Part shown: positions 16,422-29,022 of the stretch, one piece after another
Position numbering within the stretch: position 1 is the first letter of the stretch
How the letters are laid out: the number at the start of each line of letters is the position of its first letter
Source of the DNA: Chloroflexia bacterium
GTDB taxonomy: Bacteria; Chloroflexota; Chloroflexia; DTKN01
Assembly: GCA_036172265.1 (NCBI GenBank)
Contig: JASFBA010000084.1
Location: 18,169 to 82,168 of the forward strand
Direction of reading: 5' to 3'
Length of the DNA: 64,000 bases
Made by a program: the position numbers and the translations under genes
The notes under the pieces: generated by a model
Databases searched by the model: none
What the model saw: only the letters and a program-made list of their open reading frames with translations
What the model was told of the DNA's origin: nothing

Positions 16422-17933
16422 CTAGGCCGCCTGGCCGAAAAGGCCGGGCGGGATGTTTCGAGGAAGCAACACCCGAAGAGACCGGGGGATGGCCCGGAAG
16501 GTCATCGGCGTCTGCCCGATCGGTTCCCCGTCTACCTGAACGTAGAGAGGCGTCCGCGAGGAAATCACTACCTCCCGCGCCCGGCGATACTCTACCCCGC
16601 CGATCCATTTCTGACGCTGCAGGAGCGTCAACAGGGCAAAGAGGGAGATCTGGGGCAGCCCCCCCTTGCCCCGCAGGATGCAGACGTCCAGGAGGCCGTC
16701 GTCCACCGTGGCCTGGGGCGTGACCTGGGCAAATCCCCCGTAGAGCCGGGTGTTGCCGATGATCGCCACCACCGTCTCACCGGCGATCTGCTGGTCGTCC
16801 AAGATGATCACCGCCTCTTCTCCGGCGTAATGGATGGCCGAGGCGATGCCTCGGAGGATGTAACTCCAAGGCCAGAAGAGTTGCCGGGTATCGCCGGTCA
16901 TGGTCTGCACTACGGCAGCGTCGTAGCCGACGCCGGCCATCAGGAGGAAGTAGCGCGAACCGGCCAATCCCAGGTCCATAGAGCGAATCTGGCCCTGGAG
17001 GAGGACCTGGGCCGCTTCCAGAGGCTCTGTAGGCAGGCCCTGCTCGCGGGCCCAGATGTTGCCCGTGCCCAGCGGCAGGACGGCGAGAGCCGTAGTCGTG
17101 CCGGCCAGGCCGTTGACCACCTCGTTGACGGTGCCATCGCCGCCGACGGCGACGACGACATCCAGCCCGGCTGCGGCCGCCTCGCGGGCCAGTTCCATTG
17201 CGCCCCCGGGTTTGCGGGTCTCCCGCAGGCTCACTTCCCAACCTTGGCGCACCAGATAACCGAGGACTTCTTCCAGGTCGGCCAGACGGTAGGCCTGGCC
17301 GGCGGCCGGATTCAGAATCAGGCGCACCCGGGGGTGAGGGGGTAGGGGAGCGGGAAGGCCTTCCAGGTAACGGGCGATCTCCTCCACCGCCTCCGAGATA
17401 TCACCGCCGGTATCCACCACCCGGTGCGGCCGGCGGACCGGCTCCATCTTCCCGGCGTAATCCAGGTAGACCGACCAGTCGGCCTCCGATCCATAGTCCG
17501 GCAGGAGGCCCTCCCCCCGTTCCTGCAGCCGCTGGCGCACCACTTCGGGCGCGGCCGTGGTCTGCAATACCATCAGGGCTGCCCCTTTCTCCTCGGCCAG
17601 GGTATAGTAGCGCCGGCGGTGGCGGCGAAGGAGGTTGGTGGCATCGAAAATGACGCTGTGGCCTTCCTCCAGAAGGCCGGCCACTACCTCCAGACAGGTG
17701 CTGTGGACGATATGATGCTCCTCAGGCGCGTAAGTGGGGCGAGGGAAAAGGAGCCGCCGCACCTGGTCGCTGGCGACGATGACCAGGGGCAGGCGATCGG
17801 CCAGACGCTGGGCCAGGTACGATTTGCCTGTCCCCGGCAGGCCGCACAGGAGGATCAGGGCCGGCCGAAGCAGCCGGCCCGAAGGGAGGCGAAGCGCCGC
17901 CCGAATGCGACACGCATCCTGTCCCTGAGGCAT
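16422..17933 (-). CDS. fusion protein: N-terminal P-loop kinase (AAA_33-like) + C-terminal DAGK-catalytic-domain lipid kinase (YegS/BmrU family)
   Basis: GLPGTGKSYLA Walker A in the N-terminal ~170 aa, then LILNPAAGQ...VAVGGDGTVNEVVNGL...LPLGTGN DAGK_cat motifs. Confidence 0.7.
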   Translation of the reverse strand: MPQGQDACRIRAALRLPSGRLLRPALILLCGLPGTGKSYLAQRLADRLPLVIVASDQVRRLLFPRPTYAPEEHHIVHSTCLEVVAGLLEEGHSVIFDATNLLRRHRRRYYTLAEEKGAALMVLQTTAAPEVVRQRLQERGEGLLPDYGSEADWSVYLDYAGKMEPVRRPHRVVDTGGDISEAVEEIARYLEGLPAPLPPHPRVRLILNPAAGQAYRLADLEEVLGYLVRQGWEVSLRETRKPGGAMELAREAAAAGLDVVVAVGGDGTVNEVVNGLAGTTTALAVLPLGTGNIWAREQGLPTEPLEAAQVLLQGQIRSMDLGLAGSRYFLLMAGVGYDAAVVQTMTGDTRQLFWPWSYILRGIASAIHYAGEEAVIILDDQQIAGETVVAIIGNTRLYGGFAQVTPQATVDDGLLDVCILRGKGGLPQISLFALLTLLQRQKWIGGVEYRRAREVVISSRTPLYVQVDGEPIGQTPMTFRAIPRSLRVLLPRNIPPGLFGQAA

Positions 17934-19335: not shown

Positions 19336-20001
19336 ATGTCGGCAGCCAGCACGCGAGAACAGATTCTCTTTCTTCTGCGGACCGAGGGCCCGTTGACGGC
19401 CGCGCGTCTGGGAGAGCGCCTGGGCATCGGCATCACCGCCGTGCGCCAACATCTGGAGCGACTACGGGCTGAGGGGTGCGTCGAGGTGGCCGGCCTGAAG
19501 CGCGGGCGAGGCCGGCCCTGTCAACTCTTTTCCCTGACCCCGGCCGCCGACCGCCTTCTGCCCCAGGGCTATGAGGCTCTGGCCCTGGACCTTCTGGAGG
19601 CAATCCTGCGTTTGCCCCAGGGAAATATGCTGGTCCGGCAGATCCTTTCTGCCCGACGGAAACTGTGGCTCGAACGCTACAGTTCACGCCTGGCCGGCTT
19701 CCCCCTGAACGAACGGCTCGCCCAGATTACCGAGATTTTCAACGAAAAGGGGGGACTGGCTCATTACGCAGCCCAGGCCGACGGCTCCTATCTCTTGACC
19801 AAGCATCACTGCAATATCTCGGCCGTGGCCCTGCGTCACCCGATCTTTTGCCAGGAGGAACAGGCCTGGCTGCAGGAAGCCCTGGAGTCCCAGGTAGAGG
19901 TACTGCGACTTCGGGCTCGTGGAGACCCATTCTGTCAGTTCCGTATCATCCCTCGCCCAGCAGTTGCCGCATCTGTTGGGCCAAGGGGAGGAGGAAGATA
20001 A
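19336..20001 (+). CDS. winged helix-turn-helix transcriptional regulator
   Basis: Start at internal Met of ORF 19237..20001. REQILFLLRTEGPLTAARLGERLGIGITAVRQHLERLRAEGCV is a wHTH, and the C-terminal region carries conserved His/Cys. TAATG overlap with the downstream crp-like gene. Confidence 0.6.
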   Translation: MSAASTREQILFLLRTEGPLTAARLGERLGIGITAVRQHLERLRAEGCVEVAGLKRGRGRPCQLFSLTPAADRLLPQGYEALALDLLEAILRLPQGNMLVRQILSARRKLWLERYSSRLAGFPLNERLAQITEIFNEKGGLAHYAAQADGSYLLTKHHCNISAVALRHPIFCQEEQAWLQEALESQVEVLRLRARGDPFCQFRIIPRPAVAASVGPRGGGR

Positions 20002-20672
20002 TGCAACGGGGACCGTTCCCTCATCTAGCCGCCGTCCGGCCGGATCCTTGGTGGAGGTTGAAGCAAGCAGCCCGCCGGAGGACGTTCCACAGAGGAGAAG
20101 TGCTCTTTCAGGCCGGCAGGCCGGCCGACGAACTGTACCTGCTGGAACGGGGTCGGATTCGGCTTTTCAGCCGCTCTCCCCAAGGCCGGAGACTGACCCT
20201 GAGCGTCGTGGAGCCAGGGGACATCTTCGGCGAACAGGCCCTTTTCCCCCGGGGGGCCCGGACCAGCCACGCCCAGGCCCTGACCGATGGGGTACTCTAT
20301 GCCCTGTCCCGCCAGAGGTTGGAGGAACTCCTGTGGGAGGACCCCACCCTGGTCTTGCAGGTCCTGGAGAACCTGGGGAAGCGGCTCCGTTCCGTGGAGC
20401 GCCGTTTGGGCGACCTGGTCTTCAAGTCGGCTCCGGAACGGCTGGCGGCGTTGCTCCTGGACATGGTCGATCCGAGAGTCCGACAGAGTTCTGGGCCGAC
20501 CTGGTTGCCTTTCCGCTACACCCACCAGCAGTTTGCCGAAATGATCAACACCCATCGGGAAACGGTGACCAAGATCTTCAGCCGCTTCCGCGACGACCGT
20601 CTGCTGGATTTTGACCGGGATCAGATCGTCCTGCTGGATATGGAACGCCTGCGGGAGATGAGCCTGCGCTGA
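20001..20672 (+). CDS. Crp/Fnr family transcriptional regulator
   Basis: cNMP-binding domain (GEVLFQAGRPADELYLLERGRIRL...GDIFGEQAL) plus a C-terminal HTH (HQQFAEMINTHRETVTKIFSRF). SD AAGGGGAGGAGG. Confidence 0.8.
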   Translation: MQRGPFPHLAAVRPDPWWRLKQAARRRTFHRGEVLFQAGRPADELYLLERGRIRLFSRSPQGRRLTLSVVEPGDIFGEQALFPRGARTSHAQALTDGVLYALSRQRLEELLWEDPTLVLQVLENLGKRLRSVERRLGDLVFKSAPERLAALLLDMVDPRVRQSSGPTWLPFRYTHQQFAEMINTHRETVTKIFSRFRDDRLLDFDRDQIVLLDMERLREMSLR

Positions 20673-20716: not shown

Positions 20717-20869
20717 ATGGCGAAGAGTTTACAAGAAGCCCTTCTGGAGGTCGAGGAAGACCTAAAGCGAATCGGCCTGCGGGTCCGAACGGGCAGGAAG
20801 CGTCGGCGTGTCCGCCGCAAGGAGCCACCTGCTTCTTCCCAGGAATCCTCGGCTCGGCCGTCCCGCTAG
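20717..20869 (+). CDS. possible small basic protein (50 aa)
   Basis: AGGAG SD 7 nt upstream of ATG, Lys/Arg-rich. Weak call. Confidence 0.2.
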   Translation: MAKSLQEALLEVEEDLKRIGLRVRTGRKRRRVRRKEPPASSQESSARPSR

Positions 20870-22299
20870 ATGTCCCCGATGGTCTCGTTCGCCTCTCCCG
20901 GCACGGTACAGTCGAGCGATTCCCGGGGAGGAACCCCGAAGTATTCCTCCACCCGCACCAACCTCAGCGCTCCGGTCGGGCAGGCTGCCAGGCAGGCCAG
21001 TTCGGGGTAGCCCCGGCAGAGGTCGCACTTTTCGGCCCGCGGAACCCCCTTTTCCTTCATCGGCCGGCCTAAGAGCCCGGCGAACAGCCGTTCCCAGAGC
21101 CCGCCGGCCGGCTCCGGGGTGATCTGCACCATCTCGATGGCCCCGTAAGGACAGGCCGGAACGCAGCGGCCGCAGCCGTTACAACGTTCGTTCACAAAGA
21201 GGCGGCCGGCCTCGTCCCATTCCAGAGCCTCCATCGGGCAGGCCGGGATGCACTCCGGATAGAGGCAGTGCCGGCAGGCCGCAGGGAGAGTCACATATCC
21301 TACCACCAGGCCGTCCAGGTGCAGCCGGGAGTGTCCGAAGCGCCGCTGACAGGCTTCCTCGCAACGGCGACAACCCCGCGGACAGCGCATCCGCTCCCTT
21401 ACCAGGAGACGCTCGGCTACGGCCGCTTCCCCACGGACTACCTGATTGAGCACCTGGGCCCGCCGCAAATCGCTTTGGATTTCCAGCGTGCGTTGCAGCC
21501 GTTTCCGTACGATCCCTTCAACCGCCCGACGCAGCACCGGCTGCTCCTCCAGAAGGCTGCGGAAAGTGGTCTCGGGAAGTTCCAACACCTCCAGGCGGGT
21601 AAGCGCCCAGACGGTGGCCGAACGGGGTTGCCGGAGCACCAGCGCCATCTCGCCGAAAAAATCGCCGGCGGCCAGGACGGCCAGGGCCTGCTCTCGCTCC
21701 GTGCCATAGTTCCGGGCGACGACCGCCTGTCCCCAGGCGATGAGAAACAGGGAGCGGTCGGGTTCGCCTTCGCGAATGACCACCTCGTGGCGAGCGTAAG
21801 ACCGTGGGGTCAAGCAGGCCGCTATGGCCTGGCGTTCCTGACGGGAAAGGGGGCTGAAGAGCGGCACCCGGCTGAGGGCGGTGACGGTCTGGCGTTCTTC
21901 GTGGGCCCGGTAGAGGGCGGCGCGCAGGGTCGGAGCCTGCTCCAGATGGTGGGACAGGGACTCGCGGGAGACCTGAAGGGTGAGACAGGGGGTGAGGGCC
22001 TGGACGGTGGCCGAGCGCGGCTGTCCGGTAAAGAGACTGCCCTCGCCGAAAAAGTCGCCCCGTTCCAGGACGGCCAGGAGGACGGGCCGGCCGGCCAGAT
22101 CTACGGTGGTAACACGTACCTGGCCCTGAAGGAGAAAGTAAAGGTGCTGACCCTCTTCCCCTTCGGCCAGGATGCACTGGTCGGGAGAAAAGGCTCGCAG
22201 CGCCATCCACGGCACCAAGGGAGCGATTTCTTCCTCCGGGATGCCGGAGAAGCAGGGAAGTTGTCGCAATTCGGCCAAAGCCTCGGACGGGACAACCAT
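20866..22299 (-). CDS. tandem cyclic-nucleotide-binding domain protein fused to a 4Fe-4S ferredoxin-type di-cluster domain
   Basis: Two cNMP-binding signatures (GDFFGEGSLF..PRSATV and GDFFGEMALV..PRSATV). C-terminal Cys clusters CPRGCRRCEEAC, C..C..C...CP, CNGCGRCVPACP, CDLC....C..ACP. Start at ATG 22299 with SD AAGGAGAAGG. Confidence 0.75.
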   Translation of the reverse strand: MVVPSEALAELRQLPCFSGIPEEEIAPLVPWMALRAFSPDQCILAEGEEGQHLYFLLQGQVRVTTVDLAGRPVLLAVLERGDFFGEGSLFTGQPRSATVQALTPCLTLQVSRESLSHHLEQAPTLRAALYRAHEERQTVTALSRVPLFSPLSRQERQAIAACLTPRSYARHEVVIREGEPDRSLFLIAWGQAVVARNYGTEREQALAVLAAGDFFGEMALVLRQPRSATVWALTRLEVLELPETTFRSLLEEQPVLRRAVEGIVRKRLQRTLEIQSDLRRAQVLNQVVRGEAAVAERLLVRERMRCPRGCRRCEEACQRRFGHSRLHLDGLVVGYVTLPAACRHCLYPECIPACPMEALEWDEAGRLFVNERCNGCGRCVPACPYGAIEMVQITPEPAGGLWERLFAGLLGRPMKEKGVPRAEKCDLCRGYPELACLAACPTGALRLVRVEEYFGVPPRESLDCTVPGEANETIGDI

Positions 22300-22388
22300 C
22301 GTTTCCTTCTCCTTGCAGGGCCACCGTGAGAAACGCAACCCGAGTTGCCCTACATTATAACAAATCGGCGCGCCCGTTTCAATTGGAA

Positions 22389-23477
22389 TCAGTACTCCGC
22401 CCCCAGGAGGTGTCGGTTGCCGAGGCGTACGTTTCGCAATCCGGCCGCTCGGGCAGCCTCCAGGCACGATTCGGCGTGCCGGAGGGAAGTGGTCGGCAGA
22501 TCGCCCAGGAAAAAGGCCGGCCCAAAGGCCAGCAGGGCATAGGGGATGTCCAGGCTGAAGGAGGCGATGTAGCGGGCCAGCGCTCCCACCTCCTCCGCAT
22601 CTACGTAGCCGGGGACGAGGAGCGTGGCCGCCACCACCAGCGGCGGTTCCGGCCGTTCGGCAAAACGCCGCGCCGCCCGGGCAAAGTTCTCCAGCGTGCG
22701 CCGGTTGGTCACCCCGGTCAGGGCCAGGTGGAGCGGCTCATTCCATGCCTTCAGGTCGAACTTGACGATGCCCCCGCTCTCCAGCGAAAGTTGCACCGCC
22801 CGGTCCAGAAGTTGGGGAGCCATCGTCCCGTTGGTCTCCCAGCAGATGCGGAGGCCTCGCTCGGCCAGGATGTGGGCAGCGGCCAGGGCGTGGGGCATCT
22901 GCGGGGAAGGGTCGCCGCCAAAGTAGCAGATACACTCGGTGCGGGCGTGGGCCGCTCTTGCCAGTTCCTCTGCACTGAGGAGGTCATCCGGAGGATGCAG
23001 GTGGCGGTAATGCCAGTTCTGACAGCCCAGACAGTCAAAGGTGCATGCCCCGTAGAAGACGGCCAGGTTGACCCGGCCGCGCAGGTGGCGGGCCGGGCAG
23101 ACCCAATCGGCGACGCAGTTGGTGGGAAGAGGATCGTCGTACCAGTGAAGCAACCCCCGCCTCGGAGTGCCGGCGTGGTGCAGGAGCCGGCCTCCTCTGT
23201 TTTCCCGCAATCCGCAGTAGCCTCGCTCGCCCTCGGCCATCCGGCAGCGGTGCAGGCAAAGGCCGCAAGAAATACCCCCAGGGGTATCCGGGGGACGTTC
23301 TGGCAGGCCGAACTCCCGCCGGGCGCGGGCATGGGCGGCCGTAGCCAGCAGCAACGCCTCTTCCGGGCGCTCGCGCAAGCAGTCTCCACACACTCCCAGG
23401 AAAGCGGCCACCGGCGGCCGGGTGCGGCCGCAGATCCGGCATGCCCCGCCTTCGAGCCAGCGAAATGTCCTGCTCAT
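22389..23477 (-). CDS. radical SAM enzyme, AmmeMemoRadiSam/PflA-activase-like family, with extra N-terminal Cys4 ribbon
   Basis: CGLCLHRCRMAEGERGYCGLRENRGG matches the N-terminus of AmmeMemoRadiSam-type rSAM proteins. CX3CX2C (CTFDCLGC) is present. An N-terminal C..C...C..C extension is also present. Confidence 0.7.
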   Translation of the reverse strand: MSRTFRWLEGGACRICGRTRPPVAAFLGVCGDCLRERPEEALLLATAAHARARREFGLPERPPDTPGGISCGLCLHRCRMAEGERGYCGLRENRGGRLLHHAGTPRRGLLHWYDDPLPTNCVADWVCPARHLRGRVNLAVFYGACTFDCLGCQNWHYRHLHPPDDLLSAEELARAAHARTECICYFGGDPSPQMPHALAAAHILAERGLRICWETNGTMAPQLLDRAVQLSLESGGIVKFDLKAWNEPLHLALTGVTNRRTLENFARAARRFAERPEPPLVVAATLLVPGYVDAEEVGALARYIASFSLDIPYALLAFGPAFFLGDLPTTSLRHAESCLEAARAAGLRNVRLGNRHLLGAEY

Positions 23478-23484
23478 CGCCCAC

Positions 23485-24984
23485 CTACTGTCCTGGCGCG
23501 GGGTCAGACCGACCCAACTTTCCCAGAGCCACCGTCAGCCCCTTTTGGGTGAGGAGCAGGGCGAAGGTGCTGCGCAACGGCGACATCCGGGCCATCTCCT
23601 CCGCCGCTGCTGCGGCAATGGCTGCCAGCACGTCTTCCCGGGCCCTGGCCAGCCAGCCGGCCGTGTCGCGCAACCGACGGGCGTATCGGAGGCAGACCTC
23701 CGGGGGAAATTCGCTCTGCACCAGGGCAACGATGGCCAGGGCAATTTGCTGTTCCTCCGGATGGGGAAGGTTTGCTCGAAAGAGATTCTGTGCTGTGGCC
23801 TCCACCCTTTCGCTTTCCAGAAACCAGGAGGCCAAGTACGGATGGGCCAGGAAGAGGGAAACGGCCTCGTAGGAGAGGATGCCCGGAATATGGGGCAGGG
23901 TCGGCGGCTCTTCTTCCTCCGTATAACCCCAGATGCGCCCGCAGAAGAAGCGGTACTCCAGGGGATAGGGCAGGCCACAGGCCTCGTTCCAAGCCAGGGC
24001 CTCGCGCAGAAGGTGCTGAGCATAGGCCCAGGAGGCCTCCAGGAGGTAAAGACCGGTCCAGGGATGGGGAGCAGGATACACACTTCCTCTGGGGCCGGCC
24101 GGGGGCAGTTCAGCCGGTCGGTAGGCCATCTCGTAGGCCCCCTCGATGCCCCGCCCGTCGTTCAGGAAGAGGTGCAGGACACGCGGGGTTTCCTCGCTCA
24201 GGAAAAGGAGCAGGCGGTTTCCGCCCCCATCCGGCGGGCTGATCAGGATACGTTTCTCCGGCGGCGGAGGGGGGAGAGGCCGGTCGGGGACACCGCTCAG
24301 GAGAAGTTTGCGTTGTATTCGCTCGACCCAGGGCTGGCGAACAGGGGGGAGGTTGGGCCGGATGATCTGCAGGGCCTGCAGGGCTTCCGGTCGGCGGATT
24401 TTCCCCAACGCCTCCAGCGCCGGCCGAGCGATGCTTTCTCGTTCATCCAGAGCGAAGAAGCGCAAGGCTTCGATGGCCGGCGGACTGGCCGCTTCCCGAA
24501 AGCGGCGGATGGCGTAGAGAATCTCGGAGGGGGGCTGGGCGTGGATGATCGAGAGATAGTCCATCCGGAGCGAATAGGCTTCCTCCGGGGTATCCTCCAG
24601 GAGAGCATTGACAGCCACTTCGGTGGGATTGCCCAGGGCGTTGAAGAGGGCTTCGTCCGTCGGTTCCCCCAGGAACTGGTCCAAAAGGACCAGGGCTACG
24701 ATGCGCCGACGGGCCGAACTTTCCGGGGAGAGGATGGCTCGGCGCAATGCTTCGACCACCTGCCCGCGTTCCGGAATCTGGGCCAAGGTGCGCCCCAGGG
24801 CGCGCACCATCCAAGGGTCCGGTGTATCGAGATAGCGCAGAGCGATGGGCAGGGCGGCCAAGCCGTGTTCCTCCAGAGCACCCAGGAAGGAACGGCTTTC
24901 TTCCTCCGTGCGTGCCTGCGCTAGCCCCTCAAGGGCACTTTGGATTTCCCGACGGCGCTGGAGGGTAGTCAGAACCCGGCCCAT
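23485..24984 (-). CDS. HEAT-repeat (PBS-lyase-type) protein
   Basis: Repeated ALG.IG/RR..A...L motifs. Start taken at ATG 24984 (MGRVLTTLQRR); the upstream part of ORF 23485..25359 overlaps the E1 gene in another frame. Confidence 0.55.
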   Translation of the reverse strand: MGRVLTTLQRRREIQSALEGLAQARTEEESRSFLGALEEHGLAALPIALRYLDTPDPWMVRALGRTLAQIPERGQVVEALRRAILSPESSARRRIVALVLLDQFLGEPTDEALFNALGNPTEVAVNALLEDTPEEAYSLRMDYLSIIHAQPPSEILYAIRRFREAASPPAIEALRFFALDERESIARPALEALGKIRRPEALQALQIIRPNLPPVRQPWVERIQRKLLLSGVPDRPLPPPPPEKRILISPPDGGGNRLLLFLSEETPRVLHLFLNDGRGIEGAYEMAYRPAELPPAGPRGSVYPAPHPWTGLYLLEASWAYAQHLLREALAWNEACGLPYPLEYRFFCGRIWGYTEEEEPPTLPHIPGILSYEAVSLFLAHPYLASWFLESERVEATAQNLFRANLPHPEEQQIALAIVALVQSEFPPEVCLRYARRLRDTAGWLARAREDVLAAIAAAAAEEMARMSPLRSTFALLLTQKGLTVALGKLGRSDPAPGQ

Positions 24985-25855
24985 CTCCGGCTTGCTCCCC
25001 GCTTTCGCCGATGGAGAAGATTTCCACCGTGCCTGCTTCCAGGTCCACAAAGAGGAGGCGGCGGCGCAGCAACTCGCCCCGGCCCAGGAGGATTTTGAGC
25101 ACCTCGGCCACCTGGAAGGCGGCCACCAGTGCCGGTGTGGGGGCCGGCGTGCCCAGGAAAAATTCGGCCCCGTATGCCGGCCCCTGGCCGCCGCCGTAAA
25201 GCCGGGAAAGCGTCTCCTCGCCGGGGAAGACGGTGGAGACCTGGCCGATGAAGCCGGCGATGGCCCCGTGGACCAGGGGCAGGCCCAGTTGGGCGGCGGC
25301 CACTTGAAGCAGGAGTCGGTCGCGGGGCGTATCCAGGGCGTCCACGACCACATCGGCACCGGCTAAAAGTTCTGGCAGGTTTTCCGCCGTGGCCAAGGCA
25401 ACCCTAACCGTTACTTCCACCGCCGGGTTCACCCTCGCTACACGCTCGGCGGCCACCTCGGCCTTGAGCCGGCCCAGGCCGTCCAGCGTGCCGAGGGTCT
25501 GCCGGTTCAGGTTATGAGGGACAAAACGGTCTCCGTTTATAACGATCAGCCGGCCGACCCCGCTGCGGGCCAACCCCTCGATGACGTGGCCGCCCAGCCC
25601 GCCGCAGCCGACCACGGCCACGCATCGCTCCAGCAGCCGGCGCTGCCCCTCCCAGCCAAAGAGGCCCAGGTTACGGAGGTAACGTTCGGGAAGCAGCCCT
25701 TCGTCCAGGGCCCGGAGTTCGATCTGTCGGAGCGGCTGGCCGGACTGCCGGGCCGCTTCCGCTAATGCTTCCGGTGGAAGGGTGGGGACTGCCTCTCCGC
25801 CGGGGCCGGGCAATAGCCGGACCTTTCCTCGCAATTCTCGCAGCCATTCTTCCAT
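24929..25855 (-). CDS. ThiF/MoeB/HesA family E1-like adenylyltransferase (no CxxC zinc motif, no obvious catalytic Cys)
   Basis: VAVVGCGGLGGHVIEGLARSGVGRLIVINGDRFVPHNLNRQ nucleotide-binding motif. Only a C-terminal NPKCP cysteine. Confidence 0.8.
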   Translation of the reverse strand: MEEWLRELRGKVRLLPGPGGEAVPTLPPEALAEAARQSGQPLRQIELRALDEGLLPERYLRNLGLFGWEGQRRLLERCVAVVGCGGLGGHVIEGLARSGVGRLIVINGDRFVPHNLNRQTLGTLDGLGRLKAEVAAERVARVNPAVEVTVRVALATAENLPELLAGADVVVDALDTPRDRLLLQVAAAQLGLPLVHGAIAGFIGQVSTVFPGEETLSRLYGGGQGPAYGAEFFLGTPAPTPALVAAFQVAEVLKILLGRGELLRRRLLFVDLEAGTVEIFSIGESGEQAGDGPGSDYPPAPSGNPKCP

Positions 25856-25860
25856 CGAGA

Positions 25861-26103
25861 CTACCCACCCGCCACGGCCGGGAAGAGGTCCACTCGGTCC
25901 CCATCCTGCAGGACGGCCTCGCGGGATAGAGCCCGTCGGTTGACGAAGACGGTCTGCACTTCGGCCGAGGGGATACCCAATCCGGCCAGAAGGTCCAGCA
26001 CCGTGCTCCCGGCCGGGAGGAGCACCTTTTCACCCTCGCCTAAGGATCCGGCCGGCCGATAGCGCCGCAGACTGGCATAGAGGCGAATTTCCACCTCGAT
26101 CAT
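25861..26103 (-). CDS. ThiS/MoaD-family ubiquitin-like sulfur-carrier/modifier protein ending in Gly-Gly
   Basis: 80 aa, MIEVEIRLYASLRRY...VNRRAL...LQDGDRVDLFPAVAGG*. SD GGAGGTG. Confidence 0.7.
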   Translation of the reverse strand: MIEVEIRLYASLRRYRPAGSLGEGEKVLLPAGSTVLDLLAGLGIPSAEVQTVFVNRRALSREAVLQDGDRVDLFPAVAGG

Positions 26104-26120
26104 GGCCACCTCCAGGCCCA

Positions 26121-26149
26121 ATTATACATGGGGAAAGGACGAGAGGCAA
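26121..26149 (-). promoter_or_regulatory. consensus-like sigma70 promoter (TTGCCT-17bp-TATAAT) for the Ubl–E1 operon
   Basis: On the minus strand, TATAAT maps to plus 26121-26126 and TTGCCT to plus 26144-26149. Two CAACGAAC direct repeats abut the -35 element. Confidence 0.5.
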
Positions 26150-26357
26150 ATTGTTCGTTGATCGTTCGTTGTTGGTCATTTGTCTGTGGTCGTCAGGAAG
26201 CCCCAGGTCACTGGCGAGGACGGCCGCTTTGCCTTCAAGGGAGTTCGCGACGGTTTCCGGACTCGTTCGGGCGGCAATAGAGCGAATCGGGTTCGCAACC
26301 GGCGCCCTCTAGTTGCAGGGTGGTGTGGGTGATATTGCCGCGGAGGCAGAGAACCTC

Positions 26358-26894
26358 CTACAAGGATAGAGGGCGGTCCATCCGCCGGGCGCAGTGGGGG
26401 CAGAAGTCGGCCCCCTTGAAATCGGTATCGGCCAAGGTGTTGGAGAAATGCATCACGCAGCGTCGGTCGGGGCAATGCCCCAGGCCTATGGTGTGTCCGA
26501 GTTCGTGCACCGCCTCCTTAAGGGCACGAAGGCGGAAACGTTCCCTATCCTCGGGTTGACCGTAAAAGGCGGGGTGCAAGCGGGCCAACGCCACCAGTGC
26601 CTCCCGGCCGGAAATGGAGGCCTGGCCGAAGACAAAGTTCAGCCCCGGCGTATAGAGATCGGCCTCGGCCAGGCCCAGGAGTCGCCAGGCTTCGCCGGGG
26701 AGGGCGCGCAGCCGTTCCAACAAGTCGTCGCTGCGGTACTGCCTCCGGCTGGCGTCGTAGGCCTCGGCCGGCAGGGACATCGCCGGCCCGGAGGCCCAGG
26801 GCCGGCCGAAACGGACCTGGAGTTCTTCTCCCAGCCAGGGTAAGAGGCCGGGGGGAAGCGGCCCAATGGGAACAAGGAGAAGTTCGCCGGCCAT
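26358..26894 (-). CDS. archaemetzincin-like zinc metallopeptidase (peptidase M54 family)
   Basis: HELGHTIGLGHC (HExxHxxGxxH) followed by a Cys4 motif CPDRRC...CPHC. TGATG overlap with fbp stop. Confidence 0.7.
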   Translation of the reverse strand: MAGELLLVPIGPLPPGLLPWLGEELQVRFGRPWASGPAMSLPAEAYDASRRQYRSDDLLERLRALPGEAWRLLGLAEADLYTPGLNFVFGQASISGREALVALARLHPAFYGQPEDRERFRLRALKEAVHELGHTIGLGHCPDRRCVMHFSNTLADTDFKGADFCPHCARRMDRPLSL

Positions 26895-27991
26895 CACTCC
26901 TCCAGCGGCTCGAAGCGCTTCTGCAGCCGGGCCATCACCTCCGGCATGGTGGTATATTCCATCTCCTCCAGCGGCAGGCGGTGCGGCTCGAAGGGGCCGT
27001 GGCGGCGCAGATGCTCGGCAATTACGTTGCACATCCGGCGGGCTTCGTCAAAACTGGGGTCGTCGAACATATCGCGGGGGCCGATCAAACGGCCTTCGGC
27101 CAGTTGGAAGCCCAGGGCCACCACCCGGGGTGGGCCGTCGAATCGGCTGGGGTTGCTCCGCTCCACCGGAACCGGCATCAACGGGCCGTAGTGGGAACCG
27201 CGCATCCAGCCCTCGACGATATGGGGCATGGAGAACGGCTCCAGCACCTCCCCTACCGCCGGAAACTCGCCCTGGCAGCGGACGATGCAGACCGGGTCGT
27301 CTTTCCCCACGTAGTGGCCGGCGATGAGCGCCAGGCGCTGGGTTGAGGAGACGGCGGCCACCTTTCCCTCCCGCGTATAAACCGCTTTGACCATATAGCG
27401 GCCGGAAGCCCCGATAAAGACCAGGAGGTCGTAACTTTCCTCCGGGGTAAAGAAGGAGATGCGCCGATGCCCCTTGACGTCGTGTACCTCGAAGCGAAAG
27501 CCCGCATGCATGGAGGGGGAGATGACCAGGCCGGCCGTGTTGAAGGGGTCGGCGAAGATCCGGTAGAGCGGCATGTTCCAGGCCCCGGCCGAGGTCTTGT
27601 CGGCCATGAAGACAATGACCGGTTCGCTCGGGCGTTCCTCCAGTTCCATCTCGGCCACGCCGGGGCCCATCCCGCGCACGTTGCCGGAAAAGGCATCGGA
27701 GAGGAGGTCCTGGCCGGCCCCATAGAGTTTCATCTCCCGGGCCACCCGCGTGCATTCTTGGAACGTCTCCCAAGCCACCTGATGGACCTCCGCGTCGTTC
27801 GTCCCCCGGCGATGGGTCATCACGAGTTCCAGGTCGTCACCTACCCGGGTAACGTGGAAATCAAGGAGCAACCCACGGTGGCGGGCCTGGTCCAGACATT
27901 CGGCGGCCCGCTCCAGGAGTGCCGGATGGATGCTAGAGTGTCCCACATAGCCGCCGACATCGGCCTTGATGACGCTCAGCGTGACTTTCAT
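26894..27991 (-). CDS. fbp: fructose-1,6-bisphosphate aldolase/phosphatase (class V FBPase)
   Basis: The MKVTLSVIKADVGG N-terminus is diagnostic of the class V bifunctional FBP aldolase/phosphatase. Start at ATG 27991 with SD GGGGAGG. Confidence 0.85.
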   Translation of the reverse strand: MKVTLSVIKADVGGYVGHSSIHPALLERAAECLDQARHRGLLLDFHVTRVGDDLELVMTHRRGTNDAEVHQVAWETFQECTRVAREMKLYGAGQDLLSDAFSGNVRGMGPGVAEMELEERPSEPVIVFMADKTSAGAWNMPLYRIFADPFNTAGLVISPSMHAGFRFEVHDVKGHRRISFFTPEESYDLLVFIGASGRYMVKAVYTREGKVAAVSSTQRLALIAGHYVGKDDPVCIVRCQGEFPAVGEVLEPFSMPHIVEGWMRGSHYGPLMPVPVERSNPSRFDGPPRVVALGFQLAEGRLIGPRDMFDDPSFDEARRMCNVIAEHLRRHGPFEPHRLPLEEMEYTTMPEVMARLQKRFEPLEE

Positions 27992-28008: not shown

Positions 28009-29022
28009 CTACTCCTCCAGGCTTCTGAGCGCCAGGGCAATGGCCCCGACGACTACAGAGGCTTCGCCCAACGTCCCCTGGACGATCCGCACGGCGCTGC
28101 CGGGGACGGCCATCGCCAGGCGGGAGACCTCCTCCCGGAGCGGCTCCAGGAGGTCCTCGCCGGCCAGCCGGGCCACGATGCCTCCCAGGACGATCATCTC
28201 CGGGTTGAGGAGGTTCACCAGGTTGGAGACGGCGATGGCCAAGTAGTGGGCCGCCTCCGCAAGTGCCAGGCGGGAAGGGGCATGGCCCTGGCGGGCCGCC
28301 TCGACCACATCCTGGAAACGCAGCCCTCGCCCTTCTTCCTGCGCCCGGGCCTCCAGTGGGCCGGGGTCGTCGCGGGCCAGTTCGTGGGCCCGGGCAATGA
28401 GCGCCGGGGCCGAGACGAGGGCCTCCAGATGGCCCGGCCGGCCGCAACTGCACTCCGGCCCATCCTCCAGGACCAGGGTATGGCCGATCTCACCGGCCGT
28501 GGTGGTGGCTCCCCGGTAGAGTTGGCCCTCCACCACCATTCCCCCGCCGACGCCGCTGCTCAGGTGGATGTAGAAGAGGTTGCGTGCGCCGCGGCCGGCA
28601 CCATAGAGTGCCTCTCCCAGCGCCGTCACCCGGGCGTCGTTGTCCACCAGTGTGGCGGTAGAAAAGGCCTCCTCAAAGACCTGCCGCAACGGATAGTGTT
28701 CCCAGCCCGGCATCCGATGGGAGATAATGGTTACGCCCTGGTGCACATCCACCGGCCCCCCGAAGCCGATACCGATGCGCAGGAGTTGCTTCGGCTCCAG
28801 ACGGCTCTCCCGCAGAAGGGAACGGGCCATCCCCAAAGTGGACAACACCACCTGGGAGGCTTCCATCTCCCGCTCCAGCGGCTGCTGGAGCGTGCGTAGG
28901 AGTTTTCCCTGCCCATCGGCTAGGGCGACCTGCAAGCCGTATCCGCCGATGTCTATCCCCAGGAGGTATCCGCCTAACCCCAGCAGAGACCCGGTCCGTG
29001 GCTCAGAATGCGTCCGTGCCAA
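28009..29022 (-). CDS. ROK family sugar kinase (glucokinase-like)
   Basis: LGIDIGGYG..., ROK zinc motif CSCGRPGHLEA, GGGMV. Confidence 0.8.
   Translation of the reverse strand: MARTHSEPRTGSLLGLGGYLLGIDIGGYGLQVALADGQGKLLRTLQQPLEREMEASQVVLSTLGMARSLLRESRLEPKQLLRIGIGFGGPVDVHQGVTIISHRMPGWEHYPLRQVFEEAFSTATLVDNDARVTALGEALYGAGRGARNLFYIHLSSGVGGGMVVEGQLYRGATTTAGEIGHTLVLEDGPECSCGRPGHLEALVSAPALIARAHELARDDPGPLEARAQEEGRGLRFQDVVEAARQGHAPSRLALAEAAHYLAIAVSNLVNLLNPEMIVLGGIVARLAGEDLLEPLREEVSRLAMAVPGSAVRIVQGTLGEASVVVGAIALALRSLEE

What the first reader, a model, noticed from the sequence alone, without database searches (positions are those of the whole stretch)
22389..26894. Ubiquitin-like (ThiS/MoaD-GG) + cysteine-less E1 + HEAT-repeat + AmmeMemoRadiSam-type radical SAM operon, next to an archaemetzincin
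Four tightly spaced minus-strand genes run downstream of their own consensus promoter (26121-26149).
- an 80-aa beta-grasp protein ending directly in Gly-Gly, so no C-terminal processing is needed
- a ThiF/MoeB-like E1 with the adenylation motif but no CxxC zinc site and no catalytic Cys
- a ~500-aa HEAT-repeat protein whose start overlaps the E1 stop by ~56 nt
- a PflA-like radical SAM whose N-terminus (C.LC.RC...EG.RG.CG.REN) matches the AmmeMemoRadiSam class, plus an extra Cys4 ribbon

The usual partners of this radical SAM class (AMMECR1, Memo) are absent. So are thiamine and molybdopterin partners (ThiG/ThiH/MoaA/MoaE). Immediately upstream, translationally coupled to fbp, is an archaemetzincin (HExxHxxGxxH + Cys4) of unknown function. 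The combination looks like an uncharacterised sulfur-transfer or Ubl-conjugation/modification pathway rather than a textbook one.
Basis: partly seen in the sequence, partly recalled or inferred. Interest (0 to 1): 0.7.

Follow-up and report, generated by a model that had tools for sequence, protein, structure and literature searches.

The report
Ubiquitin-like carrier operon with radical SAM
A small ubiquitin-like protein, its activating enzyme and a 500-residue helical-repeat protein form a gene module found only in one narrow group of Chloroflexota, usually followed by a very widespread but uncharacterised radical-SAM enzyme. It is most likely an unusual sulfur-carrier system, but nothing yet shows that all four genes work as one pathway.

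Summary
The four minus-strand genes are real and tightly packed. They are an 80-aa ThiS-family protein ending in GG, a ThiF-family adenylyltransferase with an intact ATP site but no zinc or catalytic cysteines, a 499-aa protein and a PflA-fold radical SAM enzyme. A sigma-70-like site precedes them and another follows them.

Two labels need correcting. The radical SAM scores 65 bits against TIGR04337 (cut-off 220). It belongs to a separate sister family, called rSAM-X here, with more than 6,000 homologs in Bacteria and Archaea. The "HEAT" protein is a solenoid only over residues 1-229. The rest is a beta domain plus helices with no structural match.

Comparative genomics splits the cluster.
- Ubl plus the HEAT-like protein are together in every locus of a narrow Chloroflexota clade; E1 is with them in all but one locus type.
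- rSAM-X follows in about 11 of 14 loci.
- Outside the clade each family stands alone: 0 of 80 rSAM-X loci and 0 of 29 HEAT-family loci carry the partners.
- E1 orthologs elsewhere sit beside NifS-NifU-MOSC-ThiS or an Fe-S assembly protein.

Best reading: a lineage-specific sulfur-carrier module, with a facultatively attached radical SAM. This is a new variant of a known kind and of moderate interest.

The parts
26121..26149 (-). Sigma-70-like promoter site (TTGCCT-17-TATAAT) upstream of the Ubl gene
   Evidence: 10/12 match; 3 sites found in 8.8 kb against 1.0 +/- 1.0 in shuffles. This is a consensus match only. The 254-nt leader has no Rfam hit and no unusual folding (z = 0.59).
25861..26103 (-). 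80-aa ThiS/MoaD-family beta-grasp protein ending in Gly-Gly (a stand-alone relative of the Ub-Mut7C domain)
   Evidence: PF02597 45.3 bits and PF14451 36.1 bits; full-length alignment to PDB 6jbz_B, a MoaD/ThiS family protein (E 6.8e-5); orthologs in seven loci are all 80 aa and end in A(I/V)AGG. A GGAGG lies 5 nt before the ATG.
24929..25855 (-). ThiF/MoeB-type adenylyltransferase (E1-like) with a ~55-aa N-terminal extension and no zinc-site or crossover-loop cysteines
   Evidence: PF00899 166.7 bits; closest solved relatives are E. coli ThiF (E 4.5e-23) and MoeB, with ATP-site residues kept and the cysteines replaced; below every equivalog cut-off; orthologs of ~280 aa at 53-70% identity are common in Chloroflexota.
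23485..24984 (-). 499-aa protein with an N-terminal HEAT-like solenoid (1-229), a central beta domain (244-317) and a C-terminal helical domain (319-492). It is the clade-specific partner of the Ubl.
22389..23477 (-). Radical SAM enzyme of an uncharacterised PflA-fold family (rSAM-X). It has an N-terminal CxxC...CxxC ribbon, a second conserved Cys group (C71, C74, C78, C88, C121, C127) and the CX3CX2C SAM cluster motif (C145, C149, C152).
   Evidence: PF04055 61.2 bits. TIGR04337 65.3 bits against a cut-off of 220; the cysteines are invariant in 23 sequences; model pLDDT 90.5; best fold match is PflA 3c8f/3cb8 (E 9e-12, target TM 0.74-0.77); more than 6,000 homologs, at 50-67% identity across bacterial phyla and archaea.
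22354..22382 (-). Second promoter-like site (TTGAAA-17-TG-TATAAT) directly after the radical SAM stop. It marks the start of the next transcription unit.
   Evidence: 11/12 match with an extended -10 TG. The next gene starts at 22299.
26358..26894 (-). Archaemetzincin (HELGHTIGLGH plus Cys4), translationally coupled to fbp. It is a separate upstream unit and not part of the operon, but its family recurs next to rSAM-X elsewhere.
   Evidence: NF033823 171 bits (cut-off 145). TGATG overlap with the fbp stop codon; archaemetzincin genes lie beside rSAM-X in L045, L075 and L084, with a weak case in L060.

Best explanation
The conserved unit is a three-gene module: the Ubl-GG protein, a cysteine-less E1-like adenylyltransferase and the HEAT/beta-domain protein. 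It arose in one narrow Chloroflexota lineage.

**Proposed mechanism**
1. The E1 uses ATP to adenylate the C-terminal glycine of the 80-aa protein. This is inferred from the intact ThiF/MoeB ATP site.
2. The E1 has no cysteine, so it cannot form a thioester or an acyl-persulfide itself.
3. The acyl-adenylate is therefore most likely resolved by a persulfide from a separate sulfurtransferase or cysteine desulfurase encoded elsewhere. This would give a Ubl thiocarboxylate, as with MoaD/MoeB.
4. The 499-aa protein has no invariant Cys or His across its wider family, so it is more likely a binding or adaptor protein than an enzyme. It would be the lineage-specific partner that receives or positions the charged Ubl.

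**The radical SAM**
The downstream radical SAM is a member of an independent, very widespread family. It has been placed behind the module and is probably co-transcribed in most, but not all, members of the clade. It may be a client, for example through sulfur or Fe-S supply to a multi-cluster enzyme. It does not depend on the module in general.

**What is shown and what is inferred**
Domain identities, active-site residues, gene order and the conservation pattern are shown. Adenylation, thiocarboxylate formation, the adaptor role and any link to the radical SAM are inferred.
For: **Family assignments and residues**

**The trio recurs with different flanks**
- L002, L085/L086, L087/L088, L093, L094 and a JGI contig.
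- In L089/L090, Ubl and the HEAT-like protein stay adjacent even though the E1 is absent.
- The Ubl-linked HEAT subfamily carries its own conserved residues, including a single Cys (C431). These are absent from the wider family, which fits the acquisition of a new partner.

**E1 orthologs outside the clade**
- They share 54-59% identity and the same N-terminal extension.
- In L092 the E1 sits in NifS-NifU-small HEAT-MOSC-E1-ThiS(GG), with MnmA further upstream.
- In L091 it lies next to an FeS_assembly_P protein.
- Sulfur-relay clusters of this composition are described around Thi4 in PMC13325395.

**No conjugation or defence machinery**
- PADLOC matches only the Rossmann part of Cap2 E1-E2 fusions. 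The operon has no E2 or JAB gene.

**The radical SAM is facultative**
- It is absent in 3 loci that share the same downstream synteny of GT4, PNPase and S15.
Against: - No sulfurtransferase, cysteine desulfurase or sulfur-accepting enzyme is encoded in or next to the operon.
- The sulfur-mobilisation context of E1 orthologs rests on two loci. A third locus type (L124/L125) shows two unannotated genes instead.
- The wider HEAT-like family occurs without any Ubl or E1, so the role of this protein need not involve a Ubl at all.
- The HEAT/beta protein has no recognisable Ubl-binding or catalytic domain.
- In the window clade the gaps and overlaps among all four genes are as tight as in a true operon. 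That argues that the radical SAM is more than a passenger.
Confidence: 0.45

Rival explanations
1. All four genes form one pathway. The radical SAM enzyme would use the Ubl thiocarboxylate as sulfur donor, or act directly on the Ubl or the HEAT-like protein. The HEAT-like protein would serve as scaffold.
For: - Spacing is very tight, including a 7-nt gap before the radical SAM. Promoter-like sites lie only before the Ubl and after the radical SAM.
- The radical SAM follows the HEAT gene in about 11 of 14 clade loci (plus matching contig lengths).
- Beta-grasp genes lie directly beside this radical SAM family in two unrelated loci. L037 has a Ub-Mut7C/Mut7-C gene. L047 has ThiS-like, SAMP2-like, MoaE and ThiS-like genes. 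About 0.16 such adjacencies would be expected by chance; this is my rough estimate.
- L032 has a further Ub-Mut7C gene about 2 kb away from the radical SAM.
- The fold is PflA-like, and PflA acts on a protein glycine.
Against: - None of 80 species-level loci of the radical SAM family has an E1 or the HEAT protein within 10 kb.
- Three clade loci lack the radical SAM, with otherwise identical synteny.
- The family is 50-67% identical from Chloroflexota to Asgard archaea. Its function must therefore be independent of this narrow module.
- Its invariant residues are the same in linked and unlinked members.
Confidence: 0.2
2. The module is a minimal Ubl-conjugation system, like sampylation, urmylation or TtuB conjugation. 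The E1 would adenylate the Ubl, which is then attached to lysines. The HEAT-like protein would be the target or a specificity adaptor.
For: - The Gly-Gly end is exposed without processing.
- No sulfur-relay or sulfur-using gene is in the operon.
- The partner protein looks like a protein-binding solenoid.
- K226 is conserved family-wide, and K481 is specific to the clade.
- A metalloprotease gene lies immediately upstream.
Against: - The E1 has no cysteine in or near the crossover loop. Known conjugating E1s, including UbaA and Uba4, use one.
- The score against the UbaA equivalog is 126 against a cut-off of 450.
- There is no E2, RING or JAB gene.
- The archaemetzincin belongs to the fbp transcription unit. 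It is absent from the other trio loci.
Confidence: 0.15
3. The Ubl and E1 are the organism's ordinary sulfur carrier for molybdopterin, thiamine or tRNA thiolation. They would simply be unlinked from MoaE, ThiG or TtuA. The neighbouring genes would be unrelated.
For: - The closest solved relatives are E. coli ThiF and MoeB and MoaD/ThiS proteins.
- MoeB does not need its cysteine for MoaD adenylation; this is established knowledge, summarised in PMC12596934.
- An E1 ortholog in L092 has MnmA a few genes upstream.
Against: - Every equivalog cut-off is missed by a wide margin.
- No TPP or Moco riboswitch is present.
- The Ubl is of the Ub-Mut7C type, not a MoaD or ThiS ortholog.
- The strict Ubl-HEAT adjacency across loci with different flanks is not explained.
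Confidence: 0.1
4. The cluster has no joint function. It would be a lineage-specific juxtaposition of independently acting genes, kept by synteny.
For: - Each of the three larger families is widespread without the others.
- None of them has a conserved neighbourhood of its own.
Against: - The trio moves as a block between at least three genomic contexts: next to fbp-amz in the window, next to GT4-PNPase-S15 in several loci, and next to rpsB-tsf in L089.
- Start/stop overlaps or gaps of a few nucleotides are kept.
- The Ubl-linked HEAT subfamily has its own conserved residues.
Confidence: 0.1

Closest known systems
ThiS-ThiF and MoaD-MoeB sulfur-carrier pairs (E. coli; PDB 1zud, 1jw9)
   Same: - A small beta-grasp protein ending in Gly-Gly, paired with a ~250-300-aa ThiF-family adenylyltransferase.
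- The ATP-binding glycine loop, arginine, lysine and catalytic aspartate are conserved.
- The genes are adjacent.
   Different: - Both CxxC zinc motifs and the ThiF Cys184 equivalent are missing.
- The E1 carries a ~55-aa N-terminal extension.
- Scores fall far below the thiS, moaD, ThiF and MoeB equivalog cut-offs.
- No ThiG, ThiH, MoaE or MoaA gene is nearby, and there is no riboswitch.
- The fixed partner is a 499-aa HEAT/beta-domain protein.
Dual-function Ubl systems: TtuB-TtuC (Thermus), SAMP-UbaA (Haloferax), Urm1-Uba4 (eukaryotes)
   Same: - A ThiS/MoaD-type Ubl with a free GG end, activated by a single E1-like enzyme without an E2.
- The UbaA model is among the best E1 hits (126 bits).
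   Different: - Those E1s keep a cysteine, and often a rhodanese domain.
- The UbaA cut-off (450 bits) is not reached.
- No PP-loop thiolase (TtuA or Ncs6) and no JAMM protease lies in the neighbourhood.
AmmeMemoRadiSam system radical SAM enzyme (NCBIfam TIGR04337)
   Same: - It is the best-scoring curated family for the radical SAM.
- Both share a Cys-rich segment before the CX3CX2C motif and a PflA-type core.
- True members lie next to rSAM-X in L038, L045, L075, L078, L083 and L089.
   Different: - 65 bits against a cut-off of 220, where true members score 253-290 bits.
- Only 23-27% identity to those members.
- rSAM-X has an extra N-terminal CxxC...CxxC ribbon, and the motif DPLPTNCVADWVCP in place of NPIEKKP.
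- No AMMECR1 or Memo gene was seen nearby.
Pyruvate formate-lyase activating enzyme PflA (PDB 3c8f, 3cb8)
   Same: - It is the closest solved structure by sequence (E 1.6e-6).
- It is also the closest by fold (E 9e-12, target TM 0.74-0.77).
   Different: - rSAM-X has about 120 extra N-terminal residues carrying eight conserved cysteines.
- PFLA model score is 37 against a cut-off of 232.
- No glycyl-radical enzyme gene is nearby.
Sulfur-relay gene clusters with ThiF, ThiS, NifS, NifU, MOSC (YiiM) and MnmA, described around prokaryotic Thi4 (Oliveira-Filho et al. 2026, PMC13325395)
   Same: - An E1 ortholog (56% identical) lies in exactly this kind of cluster in L092.
- That paper also notes archaemetzincin-fold proteins in such neighbourhoods.
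   Different: - The window operon has none of the relay genes and no Thi4.
- Its archaemetzincin is a canonical HExxHxxGxxH member, not DUF6775.

Membership tests
ThiS/MoaD beta-grasp sulfur carriers (Pfam PF02597) | Profile match above the Pfam gathering score | tested here: met
   45.3 bits against 22.5. There is also a full-length alignment to the solved MoaD/ThiS protein 6jbz_B.
ThiS/MoaD beta-grasp sulfur carriers (Pfam PF02597) | C-terminal Gly-Gly available for adenylation | tested here: met
   The sequence ends ...FPAVAGG followed by the stop codon. All seven orthologs end in AGG.
ThiS (TIGR01683), MoaD (TIGR01682) and SAMP1 (NF041918) equivalogs | Score at or above the NCBIfam curated cut-off | tested here: not met
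   thiS 19.2 vs 37.45; moaD 17.3 vs 66.15; SAMP1 22.1 vs 60; moaD_arch 24.7 vs 49.5.
ThiF/MoeB E1-like adenylyltransferases (Pfam PF00899) | Profile match, plus the ATP-binding glycine loop, NLxRQ arginine, lysine and catalytic aspartate | tested here: met
   166.7 bits. In the alignment to E. coli ThiF, GCGGLGG, NLNRQ, K and VVVDALD align with their counterparts.
Canonical ThiF/MoeB/UbaA enzymes | Two CxxC zinc motifs and a cysteine in or after the crossover loop | tested here: not met
   ThiF GCYRC corresponds to TLSRL here, and Cys184 to Ala. The only cysteines are C78, C83 and C307. Orthologs outside the clade have one Cys (GCPTATP), which is Thr here.
Canonical ThiF/MoeB/UbaA enzymes | Score at or above the equivalog cut-offs | tested here: not met
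   ThiF 119.5 vs 275; MoeB 130.1 vs 449; UbaA 126 vs 450; TcdA 68.5 vs 304.
AmmeMemoRadiSam radical SAM (TIGR04337) | Score at or above the curated cut-off (220 bits) | tested here: not met
   65.3 bits. Six true members found next to this family score 253-290 bits.
AmmeMemoRadiSam radical SAM (TIGR04337) | Co-occurrence with AMMECR1 and Memo genes | tested here: inconclusive
   Neither family appeared among the 18 neighbouring proteins scanned in the window. Only 64 kb of the genome is available.
Radical SAM superfamily (PF04055) | CX3CX2C cluster motif and profile match | tested here: met
   61.2 bits. C145, C149 and C152 are invariant in 23 sequences.
Glycyl-radical enzyme activases (PflA, TIGR02493) | Equivalog score and a partner glycyl-radical enzyme | tested here: not met
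   37.4 against 231.75. No glycyl-radical enzyme gene is near. Only the fold is shared.
HEAT-repeat proteins (PF13646) | Tandem helical hairpin repeats forming a solenoid | tested here: met
   Met for residues 1-229 only. HEAT_2 scores 31.1 against 27.7 at residues 150-207. The helices are in the model, with alphaRep, AP-1 and deoxyhypusine hydroxylase matches. Residues 240-499 are not HEAT.
Archaemetzincins (NF033823, PF07998) | HExxHxxGxxH plus the Cys4 site and a score above cut-off | tested here: met
   171 against 145. HELGHTIGLGH and CPDRRC...CPHC are read directly from the sequence.
Bacterial Ubl defence or conjugation systems (CBASS Cap2, Bil, 6A-MBL) | An E2 domain or gene, a JAB/DUB gene, and a full-length match to the system's models | tested here: not met
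   PADLOC matches only residues ~70-200 of the E1 to the Rossmann part of E1-E2 fusions. Ubl, HEAT and the radical SAM have no hits. 6A-MBL cap2_3 scores 65 against 320.

The most novel reading that the evidence does not exclude
The Ubl-GG/E1/HEAT-beta module would be a dedicated service system for the multi-cluster PflA-fold radical SAM. Two versions remain open:
- It supplies sulfur as a protein thiocarboxylate for cluster assembly or for a radical sulfur insertion.
- It presents the flexible Gly-Gly tail of the Ubl as the substrate of a PflA-like hydrogen abstraction.

Either would be the first functional link between a ubiquitin-like carrier and this large uncharacterised radical SAM family. 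By extension it would touch the family's recurrent neighbours, the AmmeMemoRadiSam enzymes and archaemetzincins.
Probability: 0.12. Interest if true: 0.8.

Novelty: new variant of a known kind. Interest (0 to 1): 0.45.

Why it matters
If the core reading is right, this adds a variant to the ThiS/MoaD-E1 sulfur-carrier theme. It has an E1 stripped of all cysteines and a fixed, non-enzymatic-looking HEAT/beta partner. That bears on how Ubl specificity adaptors arose before eukaryotic E2/E3 enzymes.

The more useful by-product is the radical SAM family itself. It has more than 6,000 members and is 50-67% identical from Chloroflexota to Asgard and Thermoproteota archaea. It has no curated model and is repeatedly found beside true AmmeMemoRadiSam enzymes and archaemetzincins. 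The literature search found no functional study of the AmmeMemoRadiSam enzymes and no paper linking archaemetzincins to radical SAM enzymes. The Chloroflexota operon offers one concrete set of candidate partners, Ubl and the HEAT-like protein, to test in vitro.

Tried and rejected
- **Wider HEAT family loci.** A five-sequence subset worked.
- **Short contig.** The contig for the distant HEAT homolog P0272 was only 2.6 kb and uninformative.
- **Literature.** Searches for AmmeMemoRadiSam, for archaemetzincin plus radical SAM, and for ThiS/ThiF/HEAT/radical SAM found no functional study.
- **Riboswitch.** This idea was tested and rejected: no Rfam hit at E <= 1 between 20500 and 29300, and the leader folds no better than shuffles.
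- **Anti-phage defence.** Rejected.
- **TcdA-like role.** TsaD lies near the Ubl in several loci: directly upstream in L094, and a few kilobases upstream at the edge of L085 and of the JGI contig. This suggested a tRNA ct6A dehydratase role. It was rejected because the TcdA model scores 68 against 304 and TcdA has no Ubl partner.
- **Conserved neighbours.** Unbiased clustering of neighbours around the radical SAM and around the wider HEAT family found no strongly conserved partner.
- **Second TIGR04337 gene.** A search of the window found none.

Full report
**1. What is in the sequence**

On the minus strand the order is as follows.

| Gene | Coordinates | Note |
|---|---|---|
| ROK kinase | 28009-29022 | |
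| fbp | 26894-27991 | class V aldolase/phosphatase, 592 bits |
| Archaemetzincin | 26358-26894 | |
| Intergenic region | 26104-26357 | 254 nt |
| Ubl | 25861-26103 | 80 aa |
| E1 | 24929-25855 | 308 aa |
| HEAT-like protein | 23485-24984 | 499 aa |
| Radical SAM | 22389-23477 | 362 aa |
| Double cNMP-binding / 4Fe-4S protein | 20866-22299 | |

- Ubl to E1 is a 5-nt gap.
- E1 and the HEAT-like gene overlap by 56 nt.
- HEAT to the radical SAM is a 7-nt gap.
- The archaemetzincin ATG shares its A with the fbp TGA (TGATG), with GGAGG upstream.
- The promoter scan found three sites in 8.8 kb, against 1.0 expected. Another is a better one (22382-22354, 11/12 with TG), directly after the radical SAM stop.
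- The four genes therefore look like one transcription unit, bounded on both sides. The archaemetzincin belongs to the fbp unit.
- The leader has no Rfam match at E <= 1 and folds no better than shuffles. No TPP, Moco or SAM riboswitch gives the function away.

**2. The four proteins**

*Ubl*
- ThiS family, 45.3 bits, and Ub-Mut7C, 36.1 bits.
- It aligns over its full length to a solved MoaD/ThiS protein, and at the C-terminus to MoaD, ThiS and SAMP2.
- It ends in AGG.
- It misses every NCBIfam equivalog cut-off: thiS 19 vs 37, moaD 17 vs 66, SAMP1 22 vs 60.

*E1*
- ThiF family, 166.7 bits. The closest solved relatives are E. coli ThiF and MoeB.
- The glycine loop, NLNRQ, the lysine and the DALD aspartate align with the ThiF ATP-site residues.
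- ThiF's GCYRC is TLSRL here, and Cys184 is Ala. There is no second CxxC pair.
- Scores against ThiF, MoeB, UbaA and TcdA equivalogs are 119-130 and 68 bits, against cut-offs of 275-450 and 304.
- The enzyme should adenylate, but it cannot form a thioester or an acyl-persulfide.

*HEAT-like protein*
- One HEAT_2 hit, at residues 150-207.
- A confident model (pLDDT 89.7) shows a solenoid (1-229), a six-stranded beta domain (244-317) and a helical domain (319-492).
- Across the wider family no Cys or His is conserved. It looks like a binding protein rather than an enzyme.

*Radical SAM*
- PF04055, 61 bits. The best NCBIfam hit is TIGR04337, but at 65.3 bits against a cut-off of 220.
- Invariant cysteines form an N-terminal CxxC...CxxC ribbon, a second group (C71, C74, C78, C88, C121, C127) and the CX3CX2C motif.
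- The model (pLDDT 90.5) is closest to PflA (Foldseek E 9e-12, target TM 0.74-0.77).

**3. Is the cluster conserved?**

*The radical SAM family*
- It is very large: 6,358 of 8,000 scored candidates hit.
- In the species-level genome collection at least 576 loci encode it. Identity is 50-67% in Chloroflexota, Acidobacteriota, Planctomycetota, Nitrospirota, Armatimonadota, Thermoproteota, Baldrarchaeota and Asgard archaea.
- None of the 80 loci fetched has an E1 or the HEAT-like protein within 10 kb (tblastn E <= 1e-5).
- Unbiased clustering of neighbours found no strong partner. The best cluster occurs in 7 loci.
- Weaker links do recur.
  - A 23-27% identical paralog lies alongside in 8 loci. 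Five of them, plus one in L089, were tested and are true TIGR04337 members at 253-290 bits.
  - Some of these form tight operons: L045 is rSAM-X, archaemetzincin, TIGR04337; in L078 the TIGR04337 gene overlaps rSAM-X.
  - Archaemetzincin lies alongside in L045, L075 and L084, and weakly in L060.
  - In L082, fbp lies just upstream of the radical SAM, as in the window but without the inserted genes.

*The HEAT-like protein*
- It has only 31 close homologs, from MAGs labelled Chloroflexia.
- Loci seen directly:

| Locus | Gene order |
|---|---|
| L002 | Ubl-E1-HEAT-rSAM |
| L093 | Ubl-E1-HEAT-rSAM |
| JGI contig | Ubl-E1-HEAT-rSAM |
| L089/L090 | TIGR04337 rSAM-Ubl-HEAT-rSAM, no E1 |
| L085/L086 | Ubl-E1-HEAT only |
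| L087/L088 | Ubl-E1-HEAT only |
| L094 | Ubl-E1-HEAT only |

- In the three loci without the radical SAM, the downstream genes are the same GT4-PNPase-S15 block that follows the radical SAM in L002.
- In total the radical SAM is present in about 11 of 14 loci. Ubl and HEAT are adjacent in all, and E1 is present in all but one locus type.
- A full HMM search shows that the HEAT/beta protein belongs to a wider family: 754 representatives at E <= 1e-3 and 106 at E <= 1e-30, with full-length matches at ~24-33% identity.
- In 29 loci of that wider family, no Ubl, E1 or rSAM-X was found. About 14 of these have at least 1.2 kb upstream and about 20 have at least 1.1 kb downstream. No conserved neighbour emerged either.
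- The Ubl-linked subfamily has its own conserved residues, which the wider family lacks: W58, R61, R93, H148, H271, W309, C431 and K481.

*The E1 subfamily*
- It also extends beyond the clade: ~280-aa proteins at 53-62% identity with the same N-terminal extension.
- Three contexts were seen.
  - L092: NifS-NifU-small HEAT (106 aa)-MOSC-E1-ThiS-family protein (94 aa, ends DAGG), with MnmA and two unrelated genes further upstream.
  - L091: FeS_assembly_P-E1.
  - L124/L125: two unannotated genes, then the E1.
- The first is the kind of sulfur-relay cluster described around prokaryotic Thi4 genes (PMC13325395).

**4. Interpretation**

- The data separate a conserved core from a facultative member. 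The core is Ubl plus the HEAT/beta protein, nearly always with the E1. The facultative member is the radical SAM.
- The E1's chemistry can be inferred with fair confidence: adenylation only. Without a cysteine, the adenylate must be resolved by an external nucleophile.
- Two of the three contexts of E1 orthologs point to persulfide chemistry, giving a thiocarboxylate. I rate this as the most likely outcome (0.45 for the overall model).
- The role of the HEAT/beta protein is inferred only from its constant adjacency, its fold and its clade-specific residues.
- A single four-gene pathway remains possible (0.2). In its favour are the tight spacing and the presence of beta-grasp genes directly beside rSAM-X in two unrelated loci: L037 (Ub-Mut7C/Mut7-C) and L047 (ThiS-like, SAMP2-like, MoaE, ThiS-like). 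L032 has a further Ub-Mut7C gene about 2 kb away. The numbers are small.
- Conjugation (0.15) is disfavoured by the cysteine-less E1 and the lack of any E2 or JAB gene.
- An ordinary Moco or thiamine carrier (0.1) is disfavoured by the failed equivalog tests and the fixed HEAT partner.
- Pure juxtaposition (0.1) is disfavoured because the trio moves as a block between three different genomic contexts.

**5. Novelty and score**

- The Ubl-E1 pair is a known kind of system. The cysteine-less E1 with a fixed HEAT/beta partner, in a narrow lineage, is a new variant.
- The radical SAM is not an AmmeMemoRadiSam member. It belongs to an unrecognised sister family of wide distribution, linked loosely to true AmmeMemoRadiSam enzymes and archaemetzincins. 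This is the most reusable observation.
- No paper in the searchable library addresses either point.
- Interest is 0.45: a real, non-textbook module, but with no demonstrated joint function, and each part is individually common.

Noticed in passing
window 22389-23477; loci L005-L084: The radical SAM belongs to a large uncharacterised family with no curated model. It has more than 6,000 homologs, at 50-67% identity from Chloroflexota to Asgard and Thermoproteota archaea. True TIGR04337 AmmeMemoRadiSam enzymes (253-290 bits) lie next to it in L038, L045, L075, L078, L083 and L089.
   Followed up: partly
L045 9953-12581; L075 9974-12940; L084 9423-11915: Archaemetzincin genes recur beside this radical SAM family. 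In L045 the order is rSAM-X, archaemetzincin, TIGR04337 rSAM, with 4-nt overlaps, which looks like a three-gene operon.
   Followed up: partly
L047 9971-12333 (Thermoprotei MAG): rSAM-X is followed on the opposite strand by a ThiS-like protein (81 aa, ends GG), a SAMP2-like protein (91 aa, GG), MoaE and another ThiS-family protein (95 aa, GG).
   Followed up: partly
L037 9134-9883; L032 about 1950-2711: A full-length Ub-Mut7C plus Mut7-C nuclease gene lies divergently next to rSAM-X in L037, and about 2 kb from it in L032. The window's 80-aa Ubl is a stand-alone relative of that Ub-Mut7C domain.
   Followed up: partly
L092 2510-8150: An E1 ortholog (56% identical) sits in NifS-NifU-small HEAT (106 aa)-MOSC-E1-ThiS(GG), with MnmA and two unrelated genes further upstream. 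This sulfur-relay cluster resembles those reported around Thi4 genes (PMC13325395).
   Followed up: partly
L089 6653-10611 (= L090): In one member of the clade the E1 gene is missing. A true TIGR04337 radical SAM sits upstream of the Ubl instead, giving TIGR04337 rSAM-Ubl-HEAT-rSAM-X.
   Followed up: partly
L075 12941-14688: Two PAC2-family (proteasome assembly chaperone-like) genes lie in line with the archaemetzincin and the TIGR04337 radical SAM.
   Followed up: no
L038 7938-8783; L059 7958-8761: A SagB-type dehydrogenase gene lies next to the TIGR04337 radical SAM, which is itself divergent from rSAM-X, in Acidobacteriota loci.
   Followed up: no
window 20866-22299 and 19665-20672: A protein with two cNMP-binding domains fused to a 4Fe-4S dicluster domain has its own strong promoter-like site (22382-22354). 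It lies next to a divergent Crp-type regulator. The cNMP domains give PADLOC hits to Pycsar effector models.
   Followed up: no
window 23485-24984 (protein residues 58, 61, 93, 148, 271, 309, 431, 481): The Ubl-linked subfamily of the HEAT/beta protein conserves W58, R61, R93, H148, H271, W309, C431 and K481. The wider family, which is not linked to a Ubl, does not.
   Followed up: partly
L082 8441-11041: In an Anaerolineae MAG, fbp lies about 470 nt upstream of rSAM-X with no Ubl, E1 or HEAT genes between them. The Ubl-E1-HEAT block may therefore have been inserted into an older fbp...rSAM-X neighbourhood in the window's lineage.
   Followed up: no
window 16422-17933: A fusion of an AAA_33/KTI12-like kinase domain with a diacylglycerol-kinase/YegS-type catalytic domain (503 aa as called from the longest ORF).
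   Followed up: no
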